64,000 nucleotides of DNA from an uncultured Bacteroidota bacterium (GTDB lineage: Bacteria; CLD3; SB21): contig CAZRTJ010000005.1 of assembly GCA_964602985.1 (NCBI GenBank), positions 73,198 through 137,197 on the forward strand, written 5' to 3'. Below the pieces are notes generated by a model. It made no database searches and was not told the origin of the DNA. It saw only the letters and a list, made by a program, of their open reading frames with translations. The position numbers and the translations under genes were made by a program. Positions 2,539-52,248 of this stretch are shown here, in pieces (the stretch's first letter is position 1; the number at the start of each line of letters is the position of its first letter).

Positions 2539-2574
2539 AATGTGACTCCTTTGTTGCAGTCCCAAGCACCGCGG

Positions 2575-4394: not shown

Positions 4395-5681
4395 ATGAAA
4401 AAAGTAGTTATCGTAGACGGAGTGCGAACACCTTACGTGAAAGCCGGCACGCTGTTTCAAAAACTGACGGCGATCGATCTCGGCAACCTGGCGATGAGAG
4501 AACTCCTCAGCCGCACGGAACAACGGAGTGACGTAGTCGACGAAATCATCGTCGGCAATATCGCCCAGCCGCCCGAAGCGACCAATATCGCGCGGATTGT
4601 GGCGTTGGAGGCGGGCATCCCGAAAGACGTTCCTGCTTTTACCGTGCAACGCAATTGCGCATCCGGTATGCAGGCGATCGTCGATGCGTATCTGCGCATT
4701 CAAGCCGGACTCGCCGATACCATCATTGCGGGCGGCGTGGAATCGATGAGCAACATTCCCCTGCTGTTTCAACAAGCCTTCACCGACAAGTTCGCGGAGG
4801 TGTACAAAGCCCGATCGTTTGGACAGAAATTGGGCGCCTTGAGTAAGATCAAACTGCGCGACCTCAAACCCGTCATTGGTCTCCAGGTCGGGCTGACCGA
4901 CGGATTTTGCGGTCTCAACATGGGTGAAACGGCAGAGGTGCTTGCCAAAGAATTCAGCGTCACGCGCGCAGAGCAGGATGAACTAGCGTTGATGAGCCAC
5001 CAGCGCGCCGCCACGGCCACGGACAACGGCATTCTCAAACAGGAAATCGTCCCCGTTCAGCTCGGTGCGGACTTCAAAACCCTTGTGGACGAGGACAACG
5101 GCATTCGAAAGAATCAGACCATGGAGGCCCTTGGAAAACTTCGTCCGGTCTTTGATCGACGATACGGCACAGTCACAGCCGGCAATTCGTCCCAGATCAC
5201 GGACGGCGCGGCGTTTGTACTGGTGATGTCTGAGGAAAAAGCAAAATCTCTCGGGCTTCAGCCGCTGGGCGTGATCCGCGGATTCGGTTTTGCCGGTCTC
5301 GATCCGGAGCGAATGGGGCTGGGTCCGGTTTTCAGTACGCCGATCGCGCTGAAGCAGGCCGGCCTGACGATGAAGGACATCCAGCGTATCGAGATGAATG
5401 AGGCGTTCGCCGCACAAGTGATCGCCAACGAACGGTGTTTCGCGTCCAAACAATTTGCAAACGAACAACTCGACCTGCCGGACGCCCTGGGCGAAATCGA
5501 TCGGGGCATCCTGAATGTCAATGGCGGCGCGATTGCGCTGGGACATCCGGTCGGATCGTCCGCAACGCGTCTCGTCATTACACTACTGAAGGAATTGAAA
5601 CGTCAGCAACTGCAGTTTGGTCTCGCGACGTTGTGCATCGGCGGTGGTCAGGGCGGCGCGATGGTTCTCGAACAAGCCTGA
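4395..5681 (+). CDS. 3-ketoacyl-CoA thiolase / acetyl-CoA acyltransferase
   Basis: Thiolase signatures NCASGMQAI and NVNGGAIALGHPVGSSATR, and C-terminal CIGGGQG. It begins 3 nt after the clpX-like stop. Confidence 0.9.
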   Translation: MKKVVIVDGVRTPYVKAGTLFQKLTAIDLGNLAMRELLSRTEQRSDVVDEIIVGNIAQPPEATNIARIVALEAGIPKDVPAFTVQRNCASGMQAIVDAYLRIQAGLADTIIAGGVESMSNIPLLFQQAFTDKFAEVYKARSFGQKLGALSKIKLRDLKPVIGLQVGLTDGFCGLNMGETAEVLAKEFSVTRAEQDELALMSHQRAATATDNGILKQEIVPVQLGADFKTLVDEDNGIRKNQTMEALGKLRPVFDRRYGTVTAGNSSQITDGAAFVLVMSEEKAKSLGLQPLGVIRGFGFAGLDPERMGLGPVFSTPIALKQAGLTMKDIQRIEMNEAFAAQVIANERCFASKQFANEQLDLPDALGEIDRGILNVNGGAIALGHPVGSSATRLVITLLKELKRQQLQFGLATLCIGGGQGGAMVLEQA

Positions 5682-5693
5682 TCCCTTGCCACG

Positions 5694-6833
5694 ATGGCCG
5701 CTCTAACAACCGACGAACTCCGTCGGTATTCGCGTCACCTCATTCTCCCGCACTTTGGAAGAGAAGGACAGGAAAAGCTTAAGTCCGCTCGTGTCTTGGT
5801 GATCGGCGCCGGTGGACTGGGCAGTCCGCTGCTTCTGTATCTCGCCAGCGCGGGAGTCGGTCACATCGGCGTCGTCGATGAAGATGTTGTCGATGTGTCC
5901 AATCTGCAACGACAGGTTCTCTACGCCACTCACGATGTCGGCCGCGCCAAGGCCGAGGTTGCCGCGGAGCGCATCCGCGCCCTGAATCCACACGTATCGG
6001 TTGAGACCTATCCAGTGCGATTGAATTCCGACAATGCCATGTCCATTATCGGATCGTACGACGTGGTCGCCGACGGAACCGATAATTTTCCCACGCGATA
6101 CCTAACTAACGATGCCTGCGTGCTATTGGGAAAACCGCTGGCGTATGCTTCGATCTTCCGTTTTGACGGGCAAGCGTCCATTTTCAATGTACCACGTGCG
6201 GATGGAAGCCGCGGGCCGAACTACCGGGACTTATTTCCGTCCCCGCCGCCGCCCTCCTCCGTCCCCAGTTGCGCCGAGGGAGGCGTTTTGGGCGTGCTTC
6301 CCGGAATGATGGGATGCATCCAAGCCAATGAAGTAATCAAGGTGATCACGGGAATCGGCCGTCCGCTCAGCGGTCGACTCCTGCTGTTTGACGCACTCCG
6401 GTTCGAAACCCGTATGATCGAATTTGCTTGCGATCCCAAGAATCCGCTAAGCGGCGACCACCCGACGATCACTGAATTGATCGACTACGAAGGCTTCTGC
6501 GGACTCCGCGGCCAGACGACTCGAGGAATTGCTGTAGAAGAGCTTCAGATCATGATTCAGGAAGGGCGTCCTTTTCAACTCATCGACGTGAGAACAAAAG
6601 AGGAATACGATCTGGCCAATCTCGGCGGCATCCTCATTCCACTCGCCGCGCTACAGGAGCATTTGTCCAAGATCCGACGGGATTGTCCGGTGGTCGTTCA
6701 TTGCAAGACCGGAATACGAAGCGCGCAAGCCGTGTCGCTCCTGCAGCAACAGGGCTTTCACAACGTGAGCAATCTGGAAGGCGGGATTGTCGCATTTGCA
6801 AAATCCTTCCGCCCGGACTTGATCGTCTACTAA
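5694..6833 (+). CDS. moeB: MoeZ/MoeB-type adenylyltransferase (ThiF/E1-like) with a C-terminal rhodanese domain
   Basis: VLVIGAGGLGSP nucleotide loop, two CxxC pairs, and a rhodanese catalytic loop CKTGIRS near the C-terminus. Confidence 0.85.
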   Translation: MAALTTDELRRYSRHLILPHFGREGQEKLKSARVLVIGAGGLGSPLLLYLASAGVGHIGVVDEDVVDVSNLQRQVLYATHDVGRAKAEVAAERIRALNPHVSVETYPVRLNSDNAMSIIGSYDVVADGTDNFPTRYLTNDACVLLGKPLAYASIFRFDGQASIFNVPRADGSRGPNYRDLFPSPPPPSSVPSCAEGGVLGVLPGMMGCIQANEVIKVITGIGRPLSGRLLLFDALRFETRMIEFACDPKNPLSGDHPTITELIDYEGFCGLRGQTTRGIAVEELQIMIQEGRPFQLIDVRTKEEYDLANLGGILIPLAALQEHLSKIRRDCPVVVHCKTGIRSAQAVSLLQQQGFHNVSNLEGGIVAFAKSFRPDLIVY

Positions 6834-6881: not shown

Positions 6882-7424
6882 TTAACGAAAACTCTGATAG
6901 AGTCCTTCCAAAGCTGCGAGTAACGTCGCCGGCTGACTGTCCGCAACGGACACGCCGAGGGTAGTGAGAATTTGCACCACACGGGTGTAATTGCCCTGGT
7001 GAAACTGCCCGTACCCTTCATGAACCAGCAAGTCACTCGCAGTGACAGTACGGTCATGCGTAAAAACATATGAAGCGTTGCGTCTCACGACAAACTGTGC
7101 GCGTGCCACGGTTTGTGCGTGTTGCGTTTTCGCGAAGGCAATCGCAGTCCATCCGGCGTACGCATCCGTGAGAGAATCGCCGGCCACGACCGCAAAGTAC
7201 GCATCCGACGCATCCAGCGAATCCACCGACATGCGCATCGTTGTCCAACCCAGACCCACGTATGCCTCTCGCTCGTCCGGAATCAGTTCCGTAAACGCCG
7301 CGTGGGCGTCAGCGTATTCTCCTGCACGAAATTTCTGCCAGGCGACATCCAGTGGATCATCCTCACCGCACGCACTGAATAGCAGTCCGAGCGCAACCAC
7401 ACACACTGCCCATTTCTTCATCAT
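6882..7424 (-). CDS. Hypothetical lipoprotein
   Basis: GAGGAG RBS 6 nt before MMKKWAVCVVALGLLFSAC (lipobox). I recognise no domain. Confidence 0.55.
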   Translation of the reverse strand: MMKKWAVCVVALGLLFSACGEDDPLDVAWQKFRAGEYADAHAAFTELIPDEREAYVGLGWTTMRMSVDSLDASDAYFAVVAGDSLTDAYAGWTAIAFAKTQHAQTVARAQFVVRRNASYVFTHDRTVTASDLLVHEGYGQFHQGNYTRVVQILTTLGVSVADSQPATLLAALEGLYQSFR

Positions 7425-7466: not shown

Positions 7467-10400
7467 TTACTTCAGCAACAGCATCTTCCGCGAGACCACT
7501 CCCTGGGAGGACTCGAGGCGATACAGATAGACGCCGCTGGCCACCTGCCGGCCCAGATCGTTTCGGCCATTCCACACCACCGTGTGATAACCCGCCCGGC
7601 GGCTGCCGTTGAACAATTCGGCGACTTTCTGACCGAGAATATTGTATACGACCAGACGCACTCGACTCTCATCCGGCAGACCAAACTGAATAGTCGTTGT
7701 CGGGTTGAAAGGATTCGGGTAATTTTGCGACAGCTCGAGTTTCTTCGGCAAGAACGCATGGTCCGGATTGTAGAAAACGGCGAACGTTCCGCCTCGTCCT
7801 GTCTTGAACTGCACTGCACCCGACTGTCCTTCCCCACCCAAATATTCCCACGTGTCCCCGACGCGTTCGTACACTCCGACTTTGCGTTCGTCATAGGACG
7901 CATCCGTTGCGCGGTTCGCAGCAAGCGCCTTGGCATCGTACGGGACGGTCACCGTCAGGCGATCGCCCCTGTTCATATCGGTCGTCAGCAGGAGGTCCAG
8001 ATCACCCAAAGACAACCAATTGGCAGTCGCGGCCTTCTGCATGCCCAAAGTCAGTTCATCCGCACGATACGACCCGAGGAGGAAGCCGTCGGAGGACACG
8101 CCGCCTTTCGGTATGCCGACTCTTACTCCATCAAATTCGCCTGTCAACGCCTTGCTGGTCAGCGAAAGGACAGAGTACGTCTTCGAGGCTGTGGCCGGAT
8201 TGCCGACCGAATCCTGCGCGGAAACATCCAGCACCAGCGAACCCGTCGAGCGGATCGCGTAGGAAGTCGAGAATACCCGTGAATTGGAGCCCGTCATAGT
8301 CAGATTCGTGGTACCACCCAACGTCGCCGTACCGGTGATGCCGGCCAGACCTTCATTGGAGACCACGACTAATTGCACGCTGCTCTTGGCAATCGTACTG
8401 CGCAGGACTCCCAGCGTCAGAACGGGCGGCACGTTTTCCAGGCCCGTACCTCGCAACACCACACGAAGTGGCGTGCCGCCGGTCGAATTGGAAGTCACCT
8501 TCAGCGTATCGATCCGCGATCCGGTTTGCTGAGGTCGGAACCACACGGTCAACTGGAGCGAGTCATTCGACGTACCAATCGTATCAGGCAGAACGACTGC
8601 GTCTGATCGGTAGTCTGTGGTTGCATTCTGGATCTGACTCACGATCACGTTGCCAATCGTTGCCGTCAGTTTAACGACCGCCGAAATACTGTCGCCCACA
8701 CGCGTGGGAATATAATCGATCGCTGTGACTCCGGAACCCAGCAAACCGGCGGCTACGATGCCGTTCCCATGAAGAATGATCACCAGAGGATTCGTGGCCG
8801 ATGAATTGGAGAACTCTATGGTGTCCGCATACGAACCCAGAGCGGTCGGCGCAAAGCGGACGACAGCGCGCATGGTGTCGCCGGGCGCTACAGTGTCGGG
8901 CGTCGAGAAATTCGACGAGACTGCCGAGAATGGAACTTGCGGAGGTGCACCGGCGCTGGGAAAGATGACAATGCCGTTCTGCGGAATAATCATCAGGGTT
9001 TGGAAGGCGCTGTCGCCAAGCACTACGTTGCCGAAATCAAAATCGGTTCCGTTGGGCGTCGACAGGACCCCCAGCAGAGGTATGAACATGGCCAGTTCGG
9101 AAGAATGGCCGGCGCTGTCCTGCATCGCGGTAATGATGTCGCCCGACCCAAACGAGACCGTGGCCGTCCAATCCCCGGACCCATTGGCCGTTGTGGTTGC
9201 CAGGATCGTGCGCCCCTGGTTACCGTGCAGCCGGTCCGCATAAACCTGAACGAATGCATTCGGGGCCGACTTTCCGGTCACAGTCGTCGCAGTCACACTG
9301 GTGATCCGCGGCGGCGCGACACCTTTCTGAACTCCATCGCCGGGCTTGAACAGAATACCGCCCCATTGATTTTCAAGAATCAGGTTCTGCCAAAACACAT
9401 TGCTGTCCGTCAGAGCGCCCGCGACGCCAATTCCCGCCTGGCCATTAAAGGCAATGATGTTGCCCTGGACCGTATCCGCGGTCGATCCGCTGTGGAGATC
9501 GACGCCCATCCCCAGATTGGGGATCGGCAACACGCCCGTCACGTCCGTCCCGATGTAGTTACCCGCGATCCTCGTGCGGTAGGTGCTGTCCATCGAGATT
9601 CCACTTCGGATATTACCCGAAATAACATTGCGCATGCCGGCAGTGCCGTCACCAATCCAGTGATCTTGAGAGGTTGAACCGAAATAATCGCCCAAGATGA
9701 GAATGCCCGATCCATTGCCGATCGGCGCTGTCCCTGCCGCGTTGGTGCCAATGTTGTTCCTGAACATGCGAACATATTCAGCGCTCTGAATCAGTATGCC
9801 AGCGCCCGCTGTGTCGCCGCCGGCATCCACGTAAAAGTGTCCCGAAATGACATTCTCATATACAAGGCTGGAATCGGCGCCTCCGAAGATCGTCACACCG
9901 TCCATGCCGTTCTTGCGATTCTGATTGCCCGTTATGTCAACACCTACATAATTACCGGCGATAATGGAGTGGGGCGCATCAAAACCTTCGATGACGACTC
10001 CGCTGAGTCCATTACTGCTGATCAGGTTACGACCCGTACCAGAAGCGTCACCAATCTCATTGTATCGCGCCGGTCCCCAGATGCCGAATTCTTCCGTGAC
10101 ATAGTACCCGGAAATTCGGACACCGTGACCGCCATTTCCAAGAGAGGTTGAGCCACTCTGGTCGAGACCGACGATATTGGCCTTCACCTTGTTGAAATTC
10201 GAGGAGTCTCCGGGACTGTCTCCACCGCGAATCCAGATGCCATCCAATGCATTGGCAGAAATGACATTTCCAGTGTTGGCAGCATTACTACCAATCCAGT
10301 TCCTGCTTCCACCATGCATGATGATGCCGGCACCGGCATTTCCGAGGGGCGTGACGCCATCGGCTCCGAGACCGACCAGATTGTTGAACACCTTGCAGTC

Positions 10401-13400
10401 ATTTGAGAATTCTATTTCAATCCCCGGCGAATCGTTTTCGTTATTGCCGGACACGACATTTCTGCCTTGTCCGGTGGCGTCTCCGATGTCCGTCTGATTG
10501 GACAAATTGACATGGATACCGCCCCCACCGTTGGACAGAGCCGCCAATCCGTTGGCGGTGGTACCGATGAAATTGCCCAAGATGTCGTTGTAGTCGGCTG
10601 CGTAAATCTCCACGCCTTCCTCAAAGTTGCCGGAGATCAGATTGCCGGTGATTTTATTATTCTCCGCCCCGTTCTTGATTTCAACGCCCTTCTTATTCTC
10701 GGTGGGGAACTGACCTGTGATGTCCGGGCCGATGTAGTTGCCGGAAATATCGTTGTAGTCCGTGCCGATACCCTCCACCAGAACTCCGAACCTCTCATGG
10801 CCTGCAAATACATTTCGCCCGAATGACGTGTTGTCGCCGATCATGTTGTATTGGGCGCCGTCTGCGATTTTGATTCCACCTGTCGCGGACCGGAGTTCGA
10901 CGCCATCCGTTCCAAAGTAACAGGATGTAATTCGGTTATTTTGAGCGTTACTGCCGCTGATCACGACGGATGTGTCGAAGCCCAGAAACCGGAAGCCTGA
11001 TAGATGATTGTCAGACATGGTGATTCGGAAAGCGTTGGTCAGTATGGATCCCAGCAAAGTCACATCCGGAACACCGTCGTTGTTGAGGTCGCCATTGATG
11101 CGGGTGTTGTCGCCATTGACGGCGATCGGCCCGTAGGCGTCGTTCACCTCCAATTTTTCTCCGGCTAACGAGGCGTGGATTTTGATGGAATCGGGGCCCG
11201 CGTGGAAGACCGCCGCATACCAGGTCGCAAATCGAAGCGTTCCAGGTTCAGTTGCGCTGTCGTGCGTTTTTGTCACGACCAGGGAGTCAGAAATCACAAT
11301 ATTCATCGCATTGGAGAATGGACCGGTGCGTCCGTTCAAGTCCTGTAAGGCCGTCACAAACAGCCCTTGGGGCACGGTCACGCTCAATGACCAGCTCCCT
11401 CCACCATCTGACGTGGTTTCGCCGAGATAGAACTTGCCTTCATCGCCAATATCCGCATACACATGGATCTTCGCATTTGCATTGGCTGTCCCCAGCACTG
11501 TATTGGGCAGAAGGCTGGTTACTGCCGGGGCAATCGGATCCCCCTGCTGTCCCGCGTAGACCTTGATGCCGGATGCAGGATGATCGAAGATGGCATTGCG
11601 GTACATGATCACGCTGTCCACGTGGCCCGAGCCGCTGGACTGAATCACAATACCCGTATCATTGTCCGCGATCCGGTTGAACGCGATGGAATCGCCGATA
11701 ATGTTGTCATTGAAGGCGCTCAGATGAATTCCATGTCCGGTATTGCCGACACCGACCGCGAATCCGTCTTTGTTCGTGCCGATGTAATTGCCCAGAATTT
11801 TGTTGCCGATAACACGAAAGCTCTGAGTCGAAATACGAATCCCCGCGCCATTATTGCCGCTGATCAGATTCCGGCCGTCAGGGAATCCGGTACCGATCCA
11901 GTTACTGTCCGAGTCCTCGATCTCGACGCCCTCGTCATTCCCTATGCTGGAAGTGCCGCCGATATTTAGACCAATCGTGTTTTGATACAGACGGTGGTGG
12001 GCGCCTCCGAGGATAGCCACACCGGTCGCATTGCCGCTGATGACGTTGCCGCTCCCCGGAGTCGTTCCGCCGACAAAGATATCAAACGAATACTCCAGCC
12101 GAATTCCCGCGCCGTCATTTCCCGCATCGTTATTTCCGGACTGGTCCGTTCCGATCCGGTTCGACTCGATCCAGCTGTCATACGAATCCTGGAAGTAGAC
12201 GCCCTCCGAACTGTTGAAGGAAATCGTGTTCCCTTCGGCCACGGTCGGTCCGCCGATTCGATTGAATTTAGAATTATTGACAAAAACACCGTGACGCGAA
12301 TTTCCAATGGTTCCGCCTGCCGGGTCGACGCCGATGAGGTTCCCGACAATCACGTTCGAGTCGGAGCCGTCTATCGTTATCCCATCTACATAATTCCGGC
12401 CGATGTAATTTCTTTCCTGGACATCGGATGAACCGATCTGATTGGCGTTGGAACTGTCGAGCAGAATTCCGCTCCCTGCGTTCGAATGCGCTAGCATGTA
12501 AATATCGACGCCGATGTAGTTGCCGCGAATGCCGGTGCCGCGTGCGCCGTTCTCAAGAAGAATTCCTTCGGCTCCGTTTGCGCCGATCACATTGCCGAGA
12601 TTGGAAGGACCTCCGATGAGCGTTCCGATAGCCTGATCGACACGAATCCCAACACTAAAATTACCCATGTCGCTATTCCCGCCCGGATCCAGGCCGATCT
12701 TATTGCCTCTCACGCTGTTGGAATCCGTCCCCACGCCGGAGATGACTATACCTTCTTGAAGATTGTTGGAAATCGTATTGCTCTGAGTGGAATAGTCGTC
12801 GCCAATCACATTGTGATGAGCGCCTCCATCCACAAGAATTCCGATATAGTTCGGCTGAGGCGTGCCGGTAAAGTCCAGGCCAAACCAGCAACGTCGGATG
12901 ATGTTGTTATGAGCGCCCGTACCTGAGATCCTCAGACCTGCATTGCCGGCTGCGGAATTCCCGCCGATTCGAAGTTCTTCGAGGACATTGGAGTGAGACA
13001 AAATCGTCAGCCCGTGTTCTCCGGCCGACAGAGAGGACGCATTGATGCTTGTCGAGCTATTAGAGATAATCGTGGTGAAGGGGTCCGTCAGCGCCGGTAG
13101 CTCGCTGACCAGATCGATTTCACCGACGTTATCGAACTCAATACGATCCGCGCCGGGCCGAGTGTTGGCGGTGTCCAGAGCCGCGCGGAAACTCCCGGCT
13201 CCGGCGTCATTAAGATTCATCACCCGGATCGGTTCATTCAGGTTGCCTGATGAGACGGATGCAACCGTGATGTATGCGCCATTCGGCACAGAGACATCAT
13301 TCTTGTCAACCTTGGTCGGGTCCCAGTAGTTGTCATTGGTCAGGACGCTCGCATTGCTGAAGTCGCCGTCCGTGTCGATCAGAATCCGCATCGAGGAAGG

Positions 13401-14426
13401 ATCCGAGACCACCAGTGGGGTGACGTCAAACGACAGATTCACCTGATGAGGCGGTCCCTCCGTCTCCACTCGCCACACCCGCGAGAGTCGACGGGCGACC
13501 CCAAACGGCAATCCCGTAGTCACCGGGGCATACGGTCCATCGTCATGCCCGAAGAGAACATGTTCGCCGGGATTTAAGGACTGCGCATTCCACTCGGTGA
13601 GGGCCAGGAGATCGGACTTCGCCGATTCCGTCTCGCCGTACGGCCATGCGTCCTCTCTGACCCCTGCCCATATGGCGCGAAGATCAGACAGAGTGAGTGA
13701 TGGCATCGGAATCGTGGATGACGGACGAAGAAAATTGCCTTTCAGCACGCCCGTCCTGGCCGCAGGGGAGCCGTCCGTCAAAGTACCGCCACCGACTTCA
13801 TCCATCTTGTAATACAGAAGTAGATTCGCATAATTCGGATGTCCTGCATTCAGCGGACGATGCACCCATTCACGGATGTCGTCCGGACCAACCACGCTAC
13901 CGAAGACTCTCAACTCATCGATCGTACCGATGAGTGAATCGGAGGGGGCCGCCAAGCGCCGTCCCACAAGTGCGGAATCCGTGCTGAGGGGGAATGTCAC
14001 GATCGCGATGTTGCCTCCGTCGTCAAGACCGTTCACGTAGATTTCCGACTGCCCGGATGACGCATCATACGTAGCGGCAACATGGTACCATGTGTTGCTG
14101 GCCATGACTATGTTCGTCCCTGCAGCAGTATGGGTTCCTGATCCACCGTCCACCTGCAGGTAAACATAGCCGCCTTGCGCCAGCGTCTGAATTCCAAAGG
14201 AGATTCCATTCAGGTCCCCGCTCCGAGGCTGACTAAAGATGATATGGTTGTTTGGCGTCGTCGCATCCGGAAGCAGGACCCAGGATTCGATGGTGAAGTT
14301 GGAACCGTTCAGCGGCAACGCAGAGACCCTTGCGTGTCCTCCATCCAAGTCGAGAGCCCGGACGGCGGTTTGGGACCACAGATTGGAAACGGACAGGAAA
14401 CTCGAAAGCAGTAACAGTATCCTCAT
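7467..14426 (-). CDS. Giant (2319 aa) secreted protein with N-terminal LamG/concanavalin-like domain, a long right-handed parallel beta-helix (PbH1/NosD-like) repeat array, Ig-like region and C-terminal T9SS sorting domain
   Basis: Signal peptide; LamG_3-like block (FTIESWVLLPD...ASNTWYHVAATYD); dozens of G-N-x-I-G beta-helix rungs. The last ~80 aa (LSQNYPNPFNPTTTIQF...GVYLYRLES...KMLLLK) match the Por/T9SS C-terminal domain. Confidence 0.9.
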   Translation of the reverse strand: MRILLLLSSFLSVSNLWSQTAVRALDLDGGHARVSALPLNGSNFTIESWVLLPDATTPNNHIIFSQPRSGDLNGISFGIQTLAQGGYVYLQVDGGSGTHTAAGTNIVMASNTWYHVAATYDASSGQSEIYVNGLDDGGNIAIVTFPLSTDSALVGRRLAAPSDSLIGTIDELRVFGSVVGPDDIREWVHRPLNAGHPNYANLLLYYKMDEVGGGTLTDGSPAARTGVLKGNFLRPSSTIPMPSLTLSDLRAIWAGVREDAWPYGETESAKSDLLALTEWNAQSLNPGEHVLFGHDDGPYAPVTTGLPFGVARRLSRVWRVETEGPPHQVNLSFDVTPLVVSDPSSMRILIDTDGDFSNASVLTNDNYWDPTKVDKNDVSVPNGAYITVASVSSGNLNEPIRVMNLNDAGAGSFRAALDTANTRPGADRIEFDNVGEIDLVSELPALTDPFTTIISNSSTSINASSLSAGEHGLTILSHSNVLEELRIGGNSAAGNAGLRISGTGAHNNIIRRCWFGLDFTGTPQPNYIGILVDGGAHHNVIGDDYSTQSNTISNNLQEGIVISGVGTDSNSVRGNKIGLDPGGNSDMGNFSVGIRVDQAIGTLIGGPSNLGNVIGANGAEGILLENGARGTGIRGNYIGVDIYMLAHSNAGSGILLDSSNANQIGSSDVQERNYIGRNYVDGITIDGSDSNVIVGNLIGVDPAGGTIGNSRHGVFVNNSKFNRIGGPTVAEGNTISFNSSEGVYFQDSYDSWIESNRIGTDQSGNNDAGNDGAGIRLEYSFDIFVGGTTPGSGNVISGNATGVAILGGAHHRLYQNTIGLNIGGTSSIGNDEGVEIEDSDSNWIGTGFPDGRNLISGNNGAGIRISTQSFRVIGNKILGNYIGTNKDGFAVGVGNTGHGIHLSAFNDNIIGDSIAFNRIADNDTGIVIQSSGSGHVDSVIMYRNAIFDHPASGIKVYAGQQGDPIAPAVTSLLPNTVLGTANANAKIHVYADIGDEGKFYLGETTSDGGGSWSLSVTVPQGLFVTALQDLNGRTGPFSNAMNIVISDSLVVTKTHDSATEPGTLRFATWYAAVFHAGPDSIKIHASLAGEKLEVNDAYGPIAVNGDNTRINGDLNNDGVPDVTLLGSILTNAFRITMSDNHLSGFRFLGFDTSVVISGSNAQNNRITSCYFGTDGVELRSATGGIKIADGAQYNMIGDNTSFGRNVFAGHERFGVLVEGIGTDYNDISGNYIGPDITGQFPTENKKGVEIKNGAENNKITGNLISGNFEEGVEIYAADYNDILGNFIGTTANGLAALSNGGGGIHVNLSNQTDIGDATGQGRNVVSGNNENDSPGIEIEFSNDCKVFNNLVGLGADGVTPLGNAGAGIIMHGGSRNWIGSNAANTGNVISANALDGIWIRGGDSPGDSSNFNKVKANIVGLDQSGSTSLGNGGHGVRISGYYVTEEFGIWGPARYNEIGDASGTGRNLISSNGLSGVVIEGFDAPHSIIAGNYVGVDITGNQNRKNGMDGVTIFGGADSSLVYENVISGHFYVDAGGDTAGAGILIQSAEYVRMFRNNIGTNAAGTAPIGNGSGILILGDYFGSTSQDHWIGDGTAGMRNVISGNIRSGISMDSTYRTRIAGNYIGTDVTGVLPIPNLGMGVDLHSGSTADTVQGNIIAFNGQAGIGVAGALTDSNVFWQNLILENQWGGILFKPGDGVQKGVAPPRITSVTATTVTGKSAPNAFVQVYADRLHGNQGRTILATTTANGSGDWTATVSFGSGDIITAMQDSAGHSSELAMFIPLLGVLSTPNGTDFDFGNVVLGDSAFQTLMIIPQNGIVIFPSAGAPPQVPFSAVSSNFSTPDTVAPGDTMRAVVRFAPTALGSYADTIEFSNSSATNPLVIILHGNGIVAAGLLGSGVTAIDYIPTRVGDSISAVVKLTATIGNVIVSQIQNATTDYRSDAVVLPDTIGTSNDSLQLTVWFRPQQTGSRIDTLKVTSNSTGGTPLRVVLRGTGLENVPPVLTLGVLRSTIAKSSVQLVVVSNEGLAGITGTATLGGTTNLTMTGSNSRVFSTSYAIRSTGSLVLDVSAQDSVGNPATASKTYSVLSLTSKALTGEFDGVRVGIPKGGVSSDGFLLGSYRADELTLGMQKAATANWLSLGDLDLLLTTDMNRGDRLTVTVPYDAKALAANRATDASYDERKVGVYERVGDTWEYLGGEGQSGAVQFKTGRGGTFAVFYNPDHAFLPKKLELSQNYPNPFNPTTTIQFGLPDESRVRLVVYNILGQKVAELFNGSRRAGYHTVVWNGRNDLGRQVASGVYLYRLESSQGVVSRKMLLLK
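9750..13230 (-). repeat. Highly repetitive coding DNA for the parallel beta-helix rungs of the giant protein
   Basis: The recurring peptide motifs (GNxIGxD, NxIxGN) produce many imperfect ~66-75-nt DNA repeats. Boundaries are approximate. Confidence 0.55.
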
Positions 14427-14640
14427 GACTTCTCCTCGCGATTAGTCAATTACGATTGAAATTTCTTTTTGCGGTGCAGACTCTTAACATCCACTAGTCG
14501 GATGACCCATTCGATCATTTTTTCGGTGAAAATGCATGAAAACCATAGCCAGAATATGCTAAAGCACGCGGGCTAGCGGTGACCGGAATCACTTTCTGTC
14601 ACGGTATTGTACAGAAATGTATACGGCTCGACCCCGAGCA

Positions 14641-15072
14641 TCATCGACTTTGCTCAACTGAGTCTAACCTCTGACGAATGTCATCTGGAAGTGGGGTTTT
14701 TAAGTTGGTCCTGTAGTCATAGATCACGATCACTCCCTCACCTTCCGCGACGATCCCACCCAGATTCTCACTGGCGATTGCATAATTCATGATAAATCGG
14801 TCGTTTAGGATATTGCTCGTTCTCGCACCGACCTTCACACGGTCAGGATATCGAAGAGGCTTGCGGAATTTACAGCTGGTGAAACCCAGAATCGGTCCGA
14901 TCCCCGTTTCCTGCATGTATTCCCAAAATCCCATTTTCTGGAAGTACAACATCCGGGCGCTTTCGAAATAACGAAAGTAGACGATGTTGTTCACGTGACC
15001 AAGGGCGTCCATTTCGCCCCACGCGACGGGCGTCTCCAGTACGACTGGAAATTCCGACAGCATATTTCCCAT
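14641..15072 (-). CDS. Acyl-CoA thioesterase, hotdog fold (4HBT/YbgC-like)
   Basis: GHVNNIVYFRYFESARMLYF motif. The start ATG overlaps the upstream gene's TGA (ATGA coupling). The ORF-track N-terminal extension is basic junk. Confidence 0.7.
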   Translation of the reverse strand: MGNMLSEFPVVLETPVAWGEMDALGHVNNIVYFRYFESARMLYFQKMGFWEYMQETGIGPILGFTSCKFRKPLRYPDRVKVGARTSNILNDRFIMNYAIASENLGGIVAEGEGVIVIYDYRTNLKTPLPDDIRQRLDSVEQSR

Positions 15073-16844
15073 CAGGCTCCGCCGAGTTTCGATTTCTTGC
15101 GGCCTTTGTTTTGTTCCACAAGCCAATCCATCAGCGGCTGATAGTACTCCAGCATCGCCTTCGCGGACATGTCTTCTCCGGTTTTTTCTTTCAGGACGAT
15201 CCTCCAATCGCGGCTGGCTCCCGGGGTCATGATGCCCTTGAGGAAGTCCCCGACTTCCTTATTGCCGTAGTAATTACAATTTCGCGGATCTTGTTTCAGT
15301 ATCTTCGTTGCGATGTGCCGATGCAACTGAAATTTCAATATGCAAGACATCGCATAATCGTAATACTGCGCGGGGTCGTCGATGATATGCGTCTTCGTGG
15401 CCGCATCGGCAAACTCCTCGCCTCGATCGGCAGGCGGAACGACGCCCTGGTACATTCGGACGTGTTCCCACCAGCGGCGGTTCAGTTCGTCGACGGGGAG
15501 ATTCTTTTCGTACAGATCATACTCGTACTGCGTCATCGTTCCCGCGGACCAGGGAATGAAGACCACAGAGGAATTGGACAAGGCATCATTCAATAAAACC
15601 TGGATGTCATCGGTTTTGTCCTGATCCGAGGCGAGGCCCATCTGAATGAGATAGGGTCGTTGCGCGGCAGCCATAGCCATCAGGTCGCCGATTCCCTCAT
15701 GGTATCCCCGGTTGGCGCCCGCCCGTAGCATCAGGGGAACTTCGGGATTGGTGTAACAGATATAGTAGTAGATGTGACCCAATTCATGATGGGTGGTTTT
15801 GAACCACTGCATGTTGGGTTCCACGCTCATTAGGGAGCGATAGTCCTGGTCGAGGTCCAGGTGCCAGGCGGACGCGTGGGTGTTTTTCTTTCGCCCTGTG
15901 GCAGGATCTGCGGGGTACAGATCGGATTCTTTCCAGAAACGGTCATTCAGCTCTTCAAAGCCCAAACTCACGTAAAAATTCTCCGCCTGTTCGACCACCC
16001 ACTCCCGCGTCCGATTGGGAAATTCGCCTTCTGATGCAACGTTGACGACGCCGGGCCAGTTCTGCGCCCACTTGTTCGTCAGCCAATGAGCGGGGATCTC
16101 GTCCGGAACCGGCTGCTTGTACTTTTTCGCCAACTCGTATCGGATGTACGTGTGCAGTTCCTCATACAGCGGCCGCAATTCATCGACGAATCGCGCCATA
16201 ATGTCGCGCATGTCATCCGACGTCATGCCGTAATCGGCAGTCTCCAGTCCAAAGAACGACGAATAACCCATCTCGCGGGCGATCTCGTTACGCAGGTCGC
16301 GCAGTTTGATCAAATCTCCGCGAAGTCCCGTCCCGACTGCTTTGGCGGACTCCCACACCTGCAGGCGTTCCCGCAGGTCGCCAGACTTCATCAGGACGCG
16401 GTCGATGTCGTTCGGCGTCAGCGTTTTGTCGCCGACTTTAAATTCGTGGCTGTACATCGTGTTCACGGCGGCGGCCTGCACGCGAAACAACTCCTCGACG
16501 GCGTCGGAGATGTGTCCGGGCTGGTGCGAGGCATCCAGCCAGATCTTGTCCAACTGGCGCGCCTGCAGATCGTCGAGCCGGTCTCGCTTTTTCAGAAACT
16601 CCCGCACGCGTTCGATGTTTTCCTTACTGCCGACAAACCGGGCGTAGTCCTTCTGACGCTCCACCGCGAGGCTGTCGTGTTCCTTCCGAATATCCGTGGA
16701 CGCGAGCCACTGGGCTTTGGCCGCTTCGTAATAGACATCCTTTAATTTCTGACCGTAGGAATCCAGGAATTCCTGGGCGTCTTTCTTGGGATTCGAGCAT
16801 CCGAGGATGACAAGGACGCCGAAAATTGCACTTCGTCGTTTCAT
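15072..16844 (-). CDS. Peptidyl-dipeptidase of the M2 (angiotensin-converting-enzyme-like) family, lipoprotein
   Basis: HHELGHIYYY (ACE HHEMGH zinc motif) and downstream HEGIGDLMAMA (ACE HEAIGD glutamate ligand). Lipoprotein signal MKRRSAIFGVLVILGCS; GGAGAC RBS. Confidence 0.85.
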   Translation of the reverse strand: MKRRSAIFGVLVILGCSNPKKDAQEFLDSYGQKLKDVYYEAAKAQWLASTDIRKEHDSLAVERQKDYARFVGSKENIERVREFLKKRDRLDDLQARQLDKIWLDASHQPGHISDAVEELFRVQAAAVNTMYSHEFKVGDKTLTPNDIDRVLMKSGDLRERLQVWESAKAVGTGLRGDLIKLRDLRNEIAREMGYSSFFGLETADYGMTSDDMRDIMARFVDELRPLYEELHTYIRYELAKKYKQPVPDEIPAHWLTNKWAQNWPGVVNVASEGEFPNRTREWVVEQAENFYVSLGFEELNDRFWKESDLYPADPATGRKKNTHASAWHLDLDQDYRSLMSVEPNMQWFKTTHHELGHIYYYICYTNPEVPLMLRAGANRGYHEGIGDLMAMAAAQRPYLIQMGLASDQDKTDDIQVLLNDALSNSSVVFIPWSAGTMTQYEYDLYEKNLPVDELNRRWWEHVRMYQGVVPPADRGEEFADAATKTHIIDDPAQYYDYAMSCILKFQLHRHIATKILKQDPRNCNYYGNKEVGDFLKGIMTPGASRDWRIVLKEKTGEDMSAKAMLEYYQPLMDWLVEQNKGRKKSKLGGA

Positions 16845-16977
16845 GAGGTCTCCGGGGTTGGAAAATTCGGTGCTAATGTACATCCTGCGTACGGAAATAC
16901 AACAAAAAATCCCTTTGCCCCGTGGAAGGGAATTTGTTACCGTCCCTTAGCGCGGAAATCATGGAACGAAAAACCTT

Positions 16978-17573: not shown

Positions 17574-18893
17574 ATGACGGTCGCAGAAAAGACGACGTAT
17601 CTCCCCTACAAGGTCAAAGACTTGTCCCTTGCCGAATGGGGTCGCAAGGAGATCAAGTTGGCGGAGGCCGAAATGCCCGGCTTGATGGCATTGCGCGCAG
17701 AGTATGGCAAGCAGAAGCCGCTCAAGGGCGCGCGGATCGCAGGATGTCTGCACATGACGATCCAAACTGCAGTATTGATTGAAACATTGGTTGAACTGGG
17801 CGCCGAGGTGACGTGGTCGTCATGCAACATCTTCTCGACGCAGGACCATGCGGCCGCGGCTATTGCTGCGGCGGGTATCCCCGTCTATGCCTGGAAGGGA
17901 CAGAATGAAGAGGAATTTAACTGGTGCATTGAGCAGACTCTTTTCTTCGGAAAGGATCGCAGACCGCTGAATATGATCCTCGACGATGGCGGCGACCTGA
18001 CCAACATGGTCCTAGACAAATATCCTGAACTCGTCAAGGACATCCGGGGCATCAGCGAAGAAACGACGACGGGCGTGCATCGTCTGTATGATCGGATGCG
18101 CAACGGCACTCTTCCCGTACCGGCGATCAATGTGAACGACTCCGTGACCAAATCGAAATTTGACAACAAGTACGGATGCCGGGAGTCGCTCGTCGACGCC
18201 ATCCGGCGCGCGACGGACCTGATGCTGGCCGGCAAGGTGGCGGTCGTCGCGGGATACGGAGACGTTGGCAAGGGATCGGCCGACTCGCTGAAGCACGCGG
18301 GCGTGCGGGTGATCGTCACCGAGATCGACCCCATTTGTGCCCTGCAGGCGGCGATGGAGGGGTACGAAGTGAAGAAAATGGAGGATGCGGTCAAGGAAGC
18401 CGACATTGTCGTCACCGCGACCGGCAATTGCGATATCGTCACCGAAAAGCATTTCCGCGCGATGAAGCACAACGCCGTCGTATGCAACATCGGTCACTTT
18501 GATATCGAGATTGACATGGCCTGGCTGAATGGGAAGTACGGGCACACCAAAGACGTCATCAAGCCGCAGGTGGACAAGTACACCATCGATGGCAAAGACA
18601 TCATTGTCCTGGCGGAAGGCCGTCTGGTCAATCTCGGCTGTGCGATGGGTCATCCTTCGTTTGTCATGTCCAATAGCTTCACCAACCAGGTTTTGGCGCA
18701 GATCGAGCTCTGGACACGTTCGGAAAATTACGAAGCCAAGGTGTACACACTCCCCAAACATTTGGACGAGATGGTCGCGAGACTGCATCTGGCGAAACTC
18801 GGCGTGGAACTGGAAGCGCTTTCCAAAAAGCAGGCCGACTATATCGGGGTCGACGTCAAAGGACCGTACAAACCGGAGTGGTATCGTTACTGA
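17574..18893 (+). CDS. ahcY: Adenosylhomocysteinase (S-adenosyl-L-homocysteine hydrolase)
   Basis: Full-length match to AhcY hallmarks (NAD-binding GYGDVGKG; C-terminal [11 protein letters not shown]). Confidence 0.95.
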
Positions 18894-18918
18894 AGACGTC
18901 ATGAGCATCCAACAGTTT

Positions 18919-52247: not shown

Positions 52248-52248
52248 T

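What the first reader, a model, noticed from the sequence alone, without database searches (positions are those of the whole stretch)
7467..14426. 2319-aa T9SS cargo protein: LamG domain plus ~1100-residue parallel beta-helix plus Ig-like region plus Por C-terminal domain
This is the largest gene in the window. Its C-terminal 80 residues are a textbook type IX secretion sorting domain, which both fixes the broad taxonomy and marks the protein as cell-surface or secreted. The combination of a LamG lectin-like head and a very long PbH1/NosD-like beta-helix suggests a polysaccharide-binding or polysaccharide-degrading adhesin. The underlying DNA (about 9.7-13.2 kb) is internally repetitive and could be recombination-prone.
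Basis: partly seen in the sequence, partly recalled or inferred. Interest (0 to 1): 0.5.

Follow-up and report, generated by a model that had tools for sequence, protein, structure and literature searches.

The report
Giant T9SS-tagged beta-helix surface protein
This gene encodes a 2,319-residue rod-like surface protein of a Bacteroidota-type bacterium: a lectin-like tip on two beta-helix shafts, ending in a type IX secretion tag. It is an ordinary member of a common class, but it is paired with a small lipoprotein gene that recurs beside other such cargo genes.

Summary
The ORF is real: 7467..14426, minus strand, 2319 aa, ATG start preceded by AGGAG. The domain calls hold up: signal peptide, LamG_3, PbH1/NosD-type beta-helix, Ig-like domains, and a type-A T9SS C-terminal domain (TIGR04183, 37.7 bits against a cutoff of 23; modelled at pLDDT 85-96).

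Three corrections:
- **Two helices, not one.** There are two paralogous beta-helix modules (aa 400-1045 and 1046-1785, 30-36% identical). Each has an SLRxAI-like N-cap, about 17-18 regular coils and an Ig-like cap.
- **Two-domain head.** The head is a LamG + DUF8202-like cassette. The same cassette occurs alone fused to a CTD in short proteins, so the helices look like an inserted stalk.
- **DNA is not recombination-prone.** The longest exact repeat is 16 nt, and both known alleles are 2319 aa long.

Nothing supports a polysaccharide-degrading enzyme. The best reading is a T9SS-exported, surface-anchored binding fibre.

Taxonomy (AdoHcyase relatives; Gln after 8 of 8 signal-peptide cleavage sites) fits Bacteroidota. 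T9SS machinery genes could not be checked.

By-product: the small TPR lipoprotein gene just downstream lies directly after a type-A CTD cargo gene in five independent lineages.

Verdict: new member of a known kind, with modest interest.

The parts
14427..14640 (-). Upstream intergenic region, with an AGGAG Shine-Dalgarno 6 nt before the ATG
   Evidence: Sequence read directly. No convincing sigma-70 promoter lies in this region.
14373..14426 (-). Sec signal peptide, aa 1-18 (MRILLLLSSFLSVSNLWS|Q). Predicted cleavage exposes Gln19.
   Evidence: Cleavage site judged by inspection of the translation. The same ...A/S/G|Q pattern occurs in 8 of 8 SPI-type signal peptides in the window. The Q-rule is described in PMC5837995.
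13875..14342 (-). LamG/pentraxin-type lectin-like domain, aa 29-184
13710..13874 (-). Linker strands, aa 185-239, with a weak DUF4983-like match
   Evidence: PF16356 scores 23.9 bits, below its cutoff of 26.4. Modelled as beta-strands at pLDDT 81-84, included in the 230-240-column superposition on 4dqa.
13230..13709 (-). DUF8202-like beta-rich domain, aa 240-399 (core about 280-392)
   Evidence: Precomputed PF26628 'weak' hit on the 98% identical P0001. Aligns with five copies in P0009. An exhaustive phmmer search with aa 185-410 finds 761 representatives; most listed hits match the aa 280-392 core. AF2 pLDDT 83-89 for the core.
11547..13229 (-). Beta-helix module I, aa 400-960: N-cap (AGAGSFRAALDTAN) plus about 17 PbH1-type coils
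   Evidence: NosD stretches. Module homologues in 27 giant proteins. Coil dissection.
11292..11546 (-). Ig-like cap of module I, aa 961-1045
   Evidence: 34.5% identical to cap II. Weak Big_6 match. The cap consensus recurs in the modules of the hits.
9327..11291 (-). Beta-helix module II, aa 1046-1700: second N-cap (EPGTLRFATWYAAV) plus about 18 coils
   Evidence: NosD and Beta_helix best stretches at aa 1133-1287. 30-36% identity to module I, E down to 7e-26. Aligns over query residues 397-1044.
9072..9326 (-). Ig-like cap of module II, aa 1701-1785
   Evidence: Weak Big_6 and Big_13 matches. Homologous caps in P0006 and P0016.
8430..9071 (-). Two ASH/HYDIN-type (choice-of-anchor-D-like) Ig domains, aa 1786-1999
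   Evidence: Pfam HYDIN_VesB 30.0, ASH 28.4 and Ig_CFAP65_4th 28.4 bits, all above cutoff in the segment scan. NCBIfam choice_anch_D scores 35.5, below its cutoff of 45.
7722..8429 (-). Pre-CTD region with no family assignment, aa 2000-2235, probably beta-sandwich domains
   Evidence: No Pfam hit. Only P0011 shares it, and there too it sits directly before the CTD. The AF2 model is low-confidence and beta-rich.
7470..7721 (-). T9SS type-A C-terminal sorting domain, aa 2236-2319
   Evidence: TIGR04183 37.7 bits against a cutoff of 23. AF2 pLDDT 85-96. Foldseek top hit is PorU 6za2, with PorZ 5m11 also listed. Canonical motifs align with 16 other CTDs.
6882..7424 (-). Downstream small TPR-like lipoprotein gene (180 aa, lipobox LLFSA|C), probably co-transcribed
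   Evidence: gene call of 180 aa, 42 nt after the giant gene. Homologues lie directly downstream of T9SS CTD genes in L082, L083/L084, L085 and L087.
12651..13220 (-). Strain-polymorphic patch 1, aa 403-592 (18 aa differences, about 10% nt divergence)
   Evidence: Window compared with L001.
9456..10088 (-). Strain-polymorphic patch 2, aa 1447-1657 (23 aa differences, about 10% nt divergence)
   Evidence: Window compared with L001.

Best explanation

**Proposed route** (inferred from established T9SS biology):
1. Sec export, with signal-peptide cleavage before Gln19.
2. The type-A C-terminal domain is recognised at the outer-membrane translocon and handed to the PorV shuttle.
3. The CTD is removed by the PorU sortase, and the new C-terminus is linked to anionic LPS.

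**Resulting geometry.** The C-terminal beta-sandwich domains (pre-CTD region, then two ASH-type Ig domains) lie next to the membrane. The two capped beta-helix rods follow, each about 17-18 coils or roughly 8-9 nm. The DUF8202-like domain and the LamG lectin-like domain sit at the distal tip.

**Function.** The head is the working end and probably binds a glycan or other surface ligand. The beta-helices act as a rigid spacer rather than as enzymes.

**Accessory gene.** The small TPR lipoprotein encoded 42 nt downstream is probably a dedicated accessory factor.

**Shown versus inferred.** The domain anatomy, the module duplication, the CTD identity and the modular nature of the head are shown. 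Secretion, anchoring, ligand binding and the stalk role are inferred.
For: - **ORF and start codon:**
- **CTD:** TIGR04183 scores above cutoff at the extreme C-terminus. It folds confidently, pLDDT 85-96. PorU and PorZ are among the Foldseek hits. It aligns with canonical type-A motifs.
- **Type-A pathway knowledge:** PMC12618676; abstracts of PMC9143113, PMC8545088 and PMC4804311.
- **Taxonomy fits a T9SS-bearing lineage:** almost all of the 80 best AdoHcyase matches kept from GTDB species genomes are Bacteroidota, including Ignavibacteria, at 78-85%. Gln follows the cleavage site in 8 of 8 signal peptides.
- **The head is an autonomous module:** P0148, P0187, P0171 and P0107 are just signal peptide, LamG_3, a region matching our linker-plus-DUF8202-like segment, and CTD. 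P0177 carries the same head on a different body. P0009 has five tandem LamG + DUF8202-like cassettes.
- **The helices look like stalks:** two paralogous capped modules. Coils are regular, spaced 24-35 aa, with no large insertions. The same module recurs in multi-domain giant proteins with cadherin, Calx-beta, FG-GAP and DUF11 domains. Strain differences are tolerated inside the helices while the head, caps and CTD are identical.
Against: - No T9SS machinery gene and no second CTD protein lies in the 64-kb window or in 10 kb beyond it. This is uninformative for a genome of several Mb, but it is not positive evidence either.
- Pfam's own Por_Secre_tail model scores just under its gathering threshold.
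- No ligand is known for this LamG_3/DUF8202-like head.
- The beta-helix modules and the membrane-proximal domains could not be modelled confidently, so a catalytic groove cannot be excluded structurally.
- Some type-A cargo is released rather than anchored (PMC12618676).
Confidence: 0.6

Rival explanations
1. It is a secreted carbohydrate-active enzyme. One or both beta-helices would form the catalytic domain of a polysaccharide lyase, hydrolase or epimerase, and LamG would serve as a carbohydrate-binding module.
For: - The NosD and Beta_helix (CASH/PbH1) families include many sugar-active enzymes, and both match above cutoff.
- The LamG fold resembles CBM40 sialic-acid-binding modules, an arabinanase domain and the 'putative carbohydrate-binding' protein 4dqa.
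Against: - No pectate-lyase, GH28, PL or epimerase family matches at E <= 0.1.
- phmmer of each module against all PDB sequences finds nothing at E <= 0.1; the best hit, an S-layer protein, has E 0.22.
- The coils are uniform and lack the long loops that usually build a substrate cleft.
- The module is duplicated in tandem and recurs many times in adhesin-like giant proteins.
- The head exists without any helix in short CTD proteins.
Confidence: 0.12
2. It is a structural surface-layer, matrix or sheath component, or is released into the medium. Its role would be bulk architecture or biofilm scaffolding, with no specific ligand-binding tip.
For: - Giant beta-helix/Ig proteins with T9SS tags can form surface layers. 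S-layer proteins appear among the weak structural and sequence hits.
- Type-A cargo can be released (PMC12618676).
Against: - The polarised layout, with a lectin-like head farthest from the anchor, is typical of adhesins.
- The head cassette is conserved as an independent unit.
- The gene is isolated among housekeeping genes, not in an S-layer or glycosylation locus.
Confidence: 0.18
3. The C-terminal domain is only an FlgD-like Ig domain and the protein is not a T9SS substrate. It would be periplasmic or exported by another route.
For: Pfam FlgD_ig scores higher than Por_Secre_tail, which is sub-threshold. No T9SS machinery is seen in about 74 kb.
Against: - TIGR04183 passes its curated cutoff.
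- The domain is exactly C-terminal and ends in the usual K-x-L-L-K-type tail.
- It aligns at 45-54% identity with the ten closest CTDs, which come from proteins that carry Por_Secre_tail and/or FlgD_ig hits.
- PorU is the best structural match.
- The organism shows Bacteroidota markers.
Confidence: 0.06
4. The gene length or structure is an assembly artefact: repeats collapsed or expanded, or strains merged into a chimera.
For: The protein is repetitive at motif level. The two known alleles differ in two sharply bounded patches.
Against: - DNA self-identity is negligible: the longest exact repeat is 16 nt.
- The window allele is on 2 contigs and the other allele on 4, drawn from at least two sequencing runs. 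All copies are 2319 aa long and fully syntenic.
- Similar mismatch patches occur in neighbouring single-copy genes.
Confidence: 0.03

Closest known systems
T9SS type-A CTD cargo (TIGR04183), e.g. the lectin-domain adhesin RemA of Flavobacterium johnsoniae
   Same: Sec signal peptide, a C-terminal Ig-like type-A sorting domain, a lectin-like binding domain and a large multi-domain body. The expected pathway is the PorV shuttle followed by surface anchoring or release (PMC12618676).
   Different: No sequence relationship outside the CTD. The head is LamG + DUF8202-like and the body is two capped beta-helices. The host is an uncultured lineage known only from metagenome assemblies. Secretion has not been tested.
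Capped parallel beta-helix modules of giant surface proteins ('NosD domain-containing', 'choice-of-anchor Q', CSLREA-type), e.g. P0003 from Tautonia plasticadhaerens and P0046
   Same: The same unit: an SLRxAI..AN-like N-cap, a two-coil supra-repeat (GNxIGxxxxG...NxISGNxxxG) and an Ig-like cap ending in ...ATAtD..GNTSEFS. Identity is 29-36% over whole modules.
   Different: The window protein does not reach the NCBIfam choice_anch_Q or CSLREA models. Its caps have lost the GIDL...QNFP/TSEFS signatures. Its partner domains and anchor (T9SS) differ from those of the Planctomycetota and Proteobacteria proteins.
NosD (PF05048), the periplasmic copper-site maturation factor of nitrous-oxide reductase
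   Same: PbH1-type coils. The Pfam NosD model matches above cutoff.
   Different: NosD is a periplasmic protein that works with the NosFY ABC transporter and NosZ (established knowledge). Here there are no nos genes nearby, the protein is 2319 aa, and it carries a T9SS tag. It resembles NosD in repeat type only and is not an orthologue.
Type V autotransporter and TpsA beta-helix adhesins (pertactin, Ag43, FHA)
   Same: It would work the same way: a rigid right-handed beta-helix rod projecting functional parts away from the outer membrane (reviews PMC9289746 and PMC6555100, listed).
   Different: Different secretion system, no translocator barrel, no sequence similarity, and anchoring at the C-terminus through LPS rather than a barrel.
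BACOVA_03559 (PDB 4dqa), the PAPP-A LG domain, pentraxins and CBM40
   Different: Sequence identity is only 13-22%. Ligand-binding residues were not compared. 4dqa itself is uncharacterised.
SprB/SprF-type pairs: type-B CTD cargo with an adjacent cognate PorP/SprF-like shuttle gene
   Same: A cargo gene directly followed by a small dedicated envelope-protein gene, with the pairing conserved across lineages (PMC9143113, PMC12618676).
   Different: Here the cargo has a type-A CTD, and the CHU_C type-B model is sub-threshold. The partner is a 180-aa TPR lipoprotein rather than a PorP/SprF beta-barrel. No such partner is described for type-A cargo in the papers read.

Membership tests
T9SS type-A CTD cargo | N-terminal Sec (SPI) signal peptide | tested here: met
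   MRILLLLSSFLSVSNLWS|Q has n-, h- and c-regions by inspection. No predictor was available.
T9SS type-A CTD cargo | C-terminal domain matching TIGR04183 above its curated cutoff, at the very C-terminus | tested here: met
   37.7 bits against a cutoff of 23, aa 2236-2316 of 2319.
T9SS type-A CTD cargo | Pfam Por_Secre_tail (PF18962) above its gathering score | tested here: not met
   25.4 bits against 27, while FlgD_ig scores 34.5 against 27. This is a near miss; CTDs of this FlgD_ig-like type commonly score this way.
T9SS type-A CTD cargo | Seven-stranded Ig-like beta-sandwich fold | tested here: met
   AF2 pLDDT 85-96, all-beta. PorU 6za2 is the top Foldseek hit and PorZ 5m11 aligns over 121 columns. 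The rest of that model is poor.
T9SS type-A CTD cargo | Genome encodes the T9SS machinery (SprA/Sov, PorV, PorU, PorKLMN) | not testable with these tools
   None in the 64-kb window or in 10 kb beyond it. The rest of the genome is not available.
T9SS type-A CTD cargo | Host belongs to Bacteroidota/FCB | tested here: met
   AdoHcyase's best GTDB matches are almost all Bacteroidota. The Q-rule holds in 8 of 8 signal peptides.
T9SS type-A CTD cargo | CTD-dependent secretion and CTD cleavage | not testable with these tools
   Requires experiment.
Laminin_G_3 (PF13385) | Profile match above the gathering score, and a jelly-roll fold | tested here: met
DUF8202 (PF26628) | Profile match | tested here: inconclusive
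   Only a precomputed 'weak' hit on the 98% identical P0001. My Pfam scans returned no PF26628 match. A phmmer search with aa 185-410 found 761 representative proteins at E <= 0.001.
PbH1 / right-handed parallel beta-helix (PF13229, PF05048) | Profile matches above the gathering scores, in several stretches | tested here: met
   Beta_helix 57.3 against 25.9, and NosD 60.5 against 23.6, three stretches each. TIGR03804 scores 17.0 against 19.45, which is sub-threshold.
NosD orthologue | nosFY/nosZ genomic context and a periplasmic single-helix protein | tested here: not met
   The neighbours are thioesterase, M2 peptidase, ThiF and thiolase genes. The protein is 2319 aa and carries a CTD.
CAZy-type beta-helix enzymes (pectate lyases, GH28, PL6, C5-epimerases) | Match to a catalytic family profile or to a solved enzyme | tested here: not met
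   No such Pfam or NCBIfam hit at E <= 0.1. No PDB sequence hit. Catalytic residues could not be examined without a confident model.
choice-of-anchor D (NF012200) | Score above the curated cutoff | tested here: not met
   35.5 bits against 45. The related Pfam ASH and HYDIN Ig models do pass.
choice-of-anchor Q / CSLREA N-terminal domain | NCBIfam NF041518 or TIGR04214 match | tested here: not met
   No hit at E <= 0.1. The relative P0046 does match NF041518, and the N-cap motif resembles it by eye.
T9SS type-B CTD cargo | CHU_C (PF13585) / TIGR04131 match and an adjacent PorP/SprF gene | tested here: not met
   CHU_C scores 19.4 against 27. The neighbour is a TPR lipoprotein, not a PorP/SprF protein.
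Cargo-linked small TPR lipoprotein (uncurated family) | Lipobox, the EAYVG[LA]GW motif, and a position directly downstream of a type-A CTD gene | tested here: met
   Lipobox LLFSA|C. 30% identity to the L082 copy, E 3e-22. Adjacency in 5 lineages. Generic TPR models are passed by the L084-L086 copies but not by the window copy.

The most novel reading that the evidence does not exclude
A subset of type-A T9SS cargo genes comes with a dedicated partner: a small (about 180 aa) outer-membrane or periplasm-facing TPR lipoprotein encoded immediately downstream. It might act as a cargo-specific chaperone or pilotin, or as a surface-retention factor.

In the current picture, as read in PMC12618676, all type-A cargo relies on the general PorV shuttle. 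Cognate adjacent partners are known only for type-B cargo.

The pairing is seen in five independent lineages with 32-55% GC and unrelated cargo bodies: this beta-helix giant, an LRR/cadherin giant, an fn3/Ig giant, an S8 subtilase and a CTD-ending fragment. The family has no curated model.
Probability: 0.3. Interest if true: 0.6.

Novelty: new member of a known kind. Interest (0 to 1): 0.3.

Why it matters
The protein itself adds one more giant, modular T9SS surface protein from an uncultured Bacteroidota-type lineage.

- **Cautionary example.** A 'beta-helix plus lectin' architecture should not be read as a polysaccharide-degrading enzyme without a catalytic-family match.
- **Evolutionary point.** A compact LamG + DUF8202-like + CTD protein type seems to have been lengthened by inserting two ready-made capped beta-helix modules and Ig domains. 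This illustrates how surface fibres are built from shared parts.
- **Main lead.** The conserved pairing of type-A cargo genes with a small TPR lipoprotein is the more interesting result. If functional, it would mean some type-A substrates need a private helper, which is testable by deletion and pull-down in any cultivable carrier.

Tried and rejected
- **Word-index homologue searches.** Queries with the head (aa 1-410) and the C-terminal stalk (aa 1786-2235) returned one hit and none. They missed even P0001 and P0011, which demonstrably match, so I treated them as uninformative.
- **MAFFT alignment A3 for aa 1-1045.** It placed the LamG/DUF fragments on beta-helix columns, so I abandoned it. 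As a result no beta-helix model was made.
- **AF2 model of aa 1690-2319.** Poor (mean pLDDT 44) except for the CTD. Its fold hits outside the CTD are not meaningful.
- **AFDB50 fold search.** The library was unavailable.
- **PDB sequence search of each helix module.** Nothing found.
- **Intragenic repeats driving recombination or collapse.** Rejected. A 16-nt maximum repeat is below the roughly 20-30 nt needed for RecA-type recombination (general knowledge).
- **Positive selection in the polymorphic patches.** Rejected: dN/dS is about 0.14.
- **The lipoprotein accompanies all cargo with similar CTDs.** Rejected: 0 of 5 further loci carry it.
- **The lipoprotein is tied to a CTD subtype.** Rejected: linked-linked identity (34.7%) is no higher than linked-unlinked (38.7%).
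- **The lipoprotein is tied to the pre-CTD domain.** Rejected: no pre-CTD match was detected in the L085 subtilase or the partial L087 ORF.
- **Search for other CTD proteins, T9SS machinery or tRNA/rRNA markers.** None found in the window or in 10 kb beyond it.
- **Finer taxonomy.** AdoHcyase is too conserved. The only syntenic GTDB contig (L002) is labelled just 'bacterium'.
Full report
**1. The observation**

A single ORF occupies 7467..14426 on the minus strand and encodes 2319 aa. The reading frame opens only five codons upstream of the ATG, and AGGAG lies 6 nt before it, so the start is secure. An open frame of this length cannot arise by chance.

Whole-protein scans give these results:
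- Laminin_G_3 at aa 29-184, E 1.7e-22.
- NosD (60.5 bits) and Beta_helix (57.3 bits), three stretches each.
- FlgD_ig at aa 2246-2308 (34.5 bits).
- Por_Secre_tail at aa 2236-2315 (25.4 bits, just under Pfam's cutoff of 27).
- NCBIfam TIGR04183, 'T9SS type A sorting domain', at 37.7 bits against a cutoff of 23.

Scanning ten segments separately adds more detail:
- Two ASH/HYDIN-type Ig domains, above cutoff, in aa 1786-1999.
- Weak Big_6 and Big_13 matches for two roughly 85-aa segments that follow each helix.
- A sub-threshold DUF4983-like stretch at aa 194-237.
- No family for aa 240-400 or aa 2000-2235.

**2. Two helices, not one**

Tiled self-BLASTP shows that aa ~500-1034 and ~1156-1775 are paralogous: 30-36% identity, E down to 7e-26, including the two cap segments at 34.5%. 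In a multiple alignment, aa 1046-1785 aligns along aa 397-1044 at 31% identity.

The same unit recurs in the giant proteins found by the homologue search. It consists of an SLRxAIxxAN-type N-cap, a two-coil supra-repeat (GNxIGxxxxG...IGGxxxxxxNxISGNxxxG) and an Ig-like cap. Here the N-caps read AGAGSFRAALDTAN and EPGTLRFATWYAAV.

Using the G-h-x-h strand as an anchor, I count about 17 coils in helix I and about 18 in helix II. Spacing is 24-35 aa, with two spacings of about 40 aa and no large loop insertions. At the usual 4.8 Å rise per coil (general knowledge), each rod is about 8-9 nm long.

**3. DNA repetitiveness**

- The longest exact direct repeat in the gene is 16 nt.
- The best off-diagonal BLASTN hits are 50 nt at 74% and 25 nt at 88%.
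- TRF reports only three arrays, with scores 31-47.

The repetition is therefore at protein-motif level only, and neither recombination between repeats nor assembly collapse is a concern. The window allele is carried by two contigs, one of them in SRR10064596. A 98% identical allele (P0001) is on four contigs. All copies are 2319 aa and fully syntenic.

**4. Strain comparison**

The window and L001 differ at 298 of about 24,400 aligned bases. Of these, 162 nt and 43 aa differences fall in the giant gene. Of the 43 aa differences, 41 lie in two patches, aa 403-592 and 1447-1657, with about 10% nt divergence. The signal peptide, LamG, DUF8202-like domain, caps, ASH domains and CTD show no amino-acid difference, and the pre-CTD region has one.

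dN/dS is 0.15 overall and 0.14 within the helices. Smaller patches occur in neighbouring genes. This pattern indicates imported recombination tracts, or mixing of strains, under purifying selection. It does not indicate repeat instability or diversifying selection.

**5. The head**

An alignment with LamG instances and with five LamG + DUF cassettes from P0009 is clean. It shows conserved motifs in the second domain: LRAiW, fGHD, WRLnRvWrve and LL.D.DG.FaDA.

AlphaFold on this alignment gives mean pLDDT 70 and pTM 0.62. The LamG core scores 66-89, the linker strands 81-84 and the second domain's core 83-89.

The first 230-240 residues superpose on LamG/pentraxin-type lectin folds:

4dqa is also the only PDB sequence hit, at E 7.8e-5.

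An exhaustive phmmer search with aa 185-410 found 761 representative proteins at E <= 1e-3, 232 at <= 1e-10 and 30 at <= 1e-30. Most matched the aa 280-392 core. Hits usually carry 2-11 copies inside proteins of 1-7 thousand residues. Among the best 150 listed, none apart from P0001 exceeds about 43% identity over its matched stretches. P0001 carries a precomputed weak PF26628 (DUF8202) hit.

Several short hits are nothing but signal peptide, LamG_3, a region matching our linker-plus-DUF8202-like segment, and a T9SS CTD: P0148 (578 aa), P0187 (497 aa), P0171 (482 aa) and P0107 (616 aa). P0177 has the same head on a Sortilin/BNR body with a CTD.

The head is therefore an autonomous T9SS-cargo module. 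In the window protein, two capped helices and several Ig-like domains lie between it and the CTD.

**6. The C-terminal part**

The model of aa 1690-2319 is poor (mean pLDDT 44) except for aa 2234-2319, which scores 85-96 and is all-beta. Its best Foldseek hit in the PDB is PorU (6za2), and PorZ (5m11) also appears. Both are T9SS proteins with CTDs. The other hits are generic FnIII/Ig arrays and are not reliable.

The CTD aligns with 16 other CTDs and shows the canonical pattern: NYPNPFNP.TTI; V.L.VYN..G..V; SGVY.YRL; K.RKM.LLK.

The unassigned aa 2000-2235 region has one clear relative, P0011, where it again lies directly before the CTD. P0011 is a 2369-aa LRR/cadherin/LamG protein that passes TIGR04183.

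**7. Context and taxonomy**

The neighbours are housekeeping genes: a thioesterase and an M2 peptidase upstream; ThiF/rhodanese, thiolase and a ClpB-like AAA gene beyond the downstream lipoprotein; and AdoHcyase and MetH further upstream.

A CTD profile built from 16 CTDs finds no other CTD protein in the window. There are no T9SS machinery genes and no tRNAs, and none in the 10 kb beyond the left edge. With about 74 kb visible, this says nothing about the genome as a whole.

Of the AdoHcyase relatives in GTDB species genomes, the 80 best kept (78-85% identity) are almost all Bacteroidota, including Ignavibacteria. One unclassified MAG contig (L002) shares the thioesterase-AdoHcyase-MetH-SBP5 order, with MetH at 80% identity.

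By inspection, all eight SPI-type signal peptides I could recognise in the window place Gln right after the cleavage site. These belong to the giant protein, the M1, M28 and M64 peptidases, the Omp85/PD40 protein, the LysM protein, the DUF1028 protein and a TonB-dependent receptor. This is the 'Bacteroidetes Q-rule' of PMC5837995, which that paper reports as typical of Bacteroidetes but not of the whole FCB group.

The organism is therefore a Bacteroidota-type bacterium (55% GC, uses Shine-Dalgarno sequences), which fits T9SS.

**8. Mechanism**

From established T9SS biology, type-A cargo is exported by Sec, recognised through the CTD, taken from the translocon by PorV, and cleaved by PorU. 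It is then linked to anionic LPS or released (PMC12618676, read; abstracts of PMC9143113, PMC8545088 and PMC4804311).

Applied here, the C-terminus is proximal to the membrane and the LamG + DUF8202-like head is distal, carried on two rigid rods and several Ig-like domains.

I consider a surface-anchored binding fibre the best explanation (confidence about 0.6; the T9SS-cargo part alone about 0.85).

An enzyme role for the helices has no positive support:
- No catalytic family or solved relative matches.
- The coils are regular.
- The module is duplicated and widely reused in adhesin-like giants.

It cannot be excluded structurally, because the helices were not modelled.

**9. A conserved neighbour**

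Forty-two nt downstream lies a 180-aa ORF (6882..7424, minus strand). It has a lipobox (LLFSA|C), TPR-like sequence and no Pfam family.

P0011's locus has a 189-aa ORF in the same position. The two are 30% identical over 178 aa, E 3e-22.

A metagenome scan seeded with their alignment found six loci. Combining these with the earlier ones, the homologue lies directly downstream of a T9SS-CTD gene, on the same strand, in five independent lineages:

| Locus | Upstream cargo gene | Gap to lipoprotein start |
|---|---|---|
| Window / L001 | beta-helix giant (this protein) | 21-45 nt |
| L082 | LRR/cadherin giant (P0011) | 77-104 nt |
| L083 / L084 | 2582-aa fn3/Big_13 giant; in L083 an S8 subtilase with a CTD-type FlgD_ig domain also follows | 346 nt |
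| L085 (32% GC) | 680-aa S8 subtilase with near-threshold Por_Secre_tail | 7-nt overlap |
| L087 | CTD-ending ORF | 13 nt |

L086 is too short to judge and L088 is a spurious match.

All copies have a lipobox and the EAYVG[LA]GW motif. The L084-L086 copies pass generic TPR models. No curated family exists, and there are only weak resemblances to SycD/LcrH, PilW, Tgl, BamD and the PorE N-terminus.

In 1.31 Mb of unrelated Bacteroidota loci there is no copy of the lipoprotein and only four CTD ORFs of this type. Five out of five adjacency is therefore far from chance.

The converse does not hold. Five other cargo loci with close CTDs lack the lipoprotein. Linked CTDs are no more similar to each other than to unlinked ones. 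No pre-CTD domain was detected in the L085 subtilase or in the partial L087 ORF.

The papers I read describe cognate adjacent partners only for type-B cargo (PorP/SprF-like) and mention no such lipoprotein. A dedicated accessory role is an inference from gene order only.

**10. Verdict**

The object is a new member of a known kind: a giant modular T9SS surface protein with a unique combination of known modules. In the full-length word-index search of about 5.8 billion proteins (8,000 candidates scored), the only full-length relative was the 98% identical allele.

Interest is modest at 0.3. The cargo-lipoprotein pairing is the one lead worth following up.

Noticed in passing
window 6882-7424 (minus strand); L082:7434-7973; L084:8433-9029; L085:3183-3743; L087:1219-2256; L086:772-1428: A small TPR lipoprotein family (lipobox plus the EAYVG[LA]GW motif, no curated model) lies directly downstream of type-A T9SS cargo genes in five independent lineages. 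It is absent from 1.3 Mb of unrelated Bacteroidota loci and from five other cargo loci.
   Followed up: yes
window 9456-10088 and 12651-13220 (also 1-300, 5400-6300, 18600-18900, 20700-21000, 22500-22800): The two alleles known from metagenome assemblies differ in sharply bounded patches of about 10% divergence against a nearly identical background. The two largest patches lie inside the beta-helix modules. dN/dS is about 0.14, so these are probably imported recombination tracts.
   Followed up: partly
window: N-termini of the genes at 7467-14426, 27737-30682, 30729-32801, 46664-48103, 42815-45823, 26234-27091, 37634-38623 and 61573-63795: All eight recognisable SPI-type signal peptides put Gln directly after the predicted cleavage site (the Bacteroidetes Q-rule). 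This is a useful taxonomic marker in the absence of rRNA or tRNA genes. It was judged by eye only.
   Followed up: partly
window 364-2712, continuing in L095:11425-14228: A cluster of multihaem c-type cytochromes (MtrC/MtrF-like, c554-like, c7-like), at least five genes in a row, hinting at extracellular or periplasmic electron transfer.
   Followed up: no
window 49267-55699: A molybdopterin oxidoreductase followed by DsrO-like (FeS) and DsrP-like (membrane) subunits, i.e. a Psr/Ttr/ACIII-type respiratory module. DsrP scores 411 bits, above its cutoff; DsrO scores 192, just below 200.
   Followed up: no
window 33615-40698: Three large ORFs (570, 700 and 692 aa) have no Pfam match at E <= 0.001; two of the three also had no NCBIfam match. 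They lie in a stretch with unusually high AT skew (0.17-0.28), next to GT2 glycosyltransferase and DegT aminotransferase genes. They may be membrane proteins of a glycan pathway.
   Followed up: no
window 15072-16883, 27737-30682, 30729-32801, 42815-45823, 46664-48103: Many exported metallopeptidases occur in one window: an M2 angiotensin-converting-enzyme-like peptidase, M1, M28 and M64 peptidases, and a 1002-aa fusion of Peptidase_MA, PD40 repeats and an Omp85 barrel. None has a T9SS CTD.
   Followed up: no
P0009 (3507 aa); P0148, P0187, P0171, P0107, P0177: The LamG + DUF8202-like cassette occurs as five tandem copies in one giant protein. It also forms the whole body of short T9SS cargo proteins, and so behaves as a mobile two-domain unit.
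   Followed up: partly
L083:1-1717: The 3' end of the giant fn3 gene is split into two overlapping frames (1-1116 and 947-1717), whereas L084 has it intact. This is a probable frameshift or sequencing error in that contig.
   Followed up: no
(tool behaviour): The word-index homologue search failed to return P0001, which is 100% identical in these regions, and P0011 when queried with sub-regions of the protein. 'No hits' from that tool is not evidence of absence for such sequences.
   Followed up: partly
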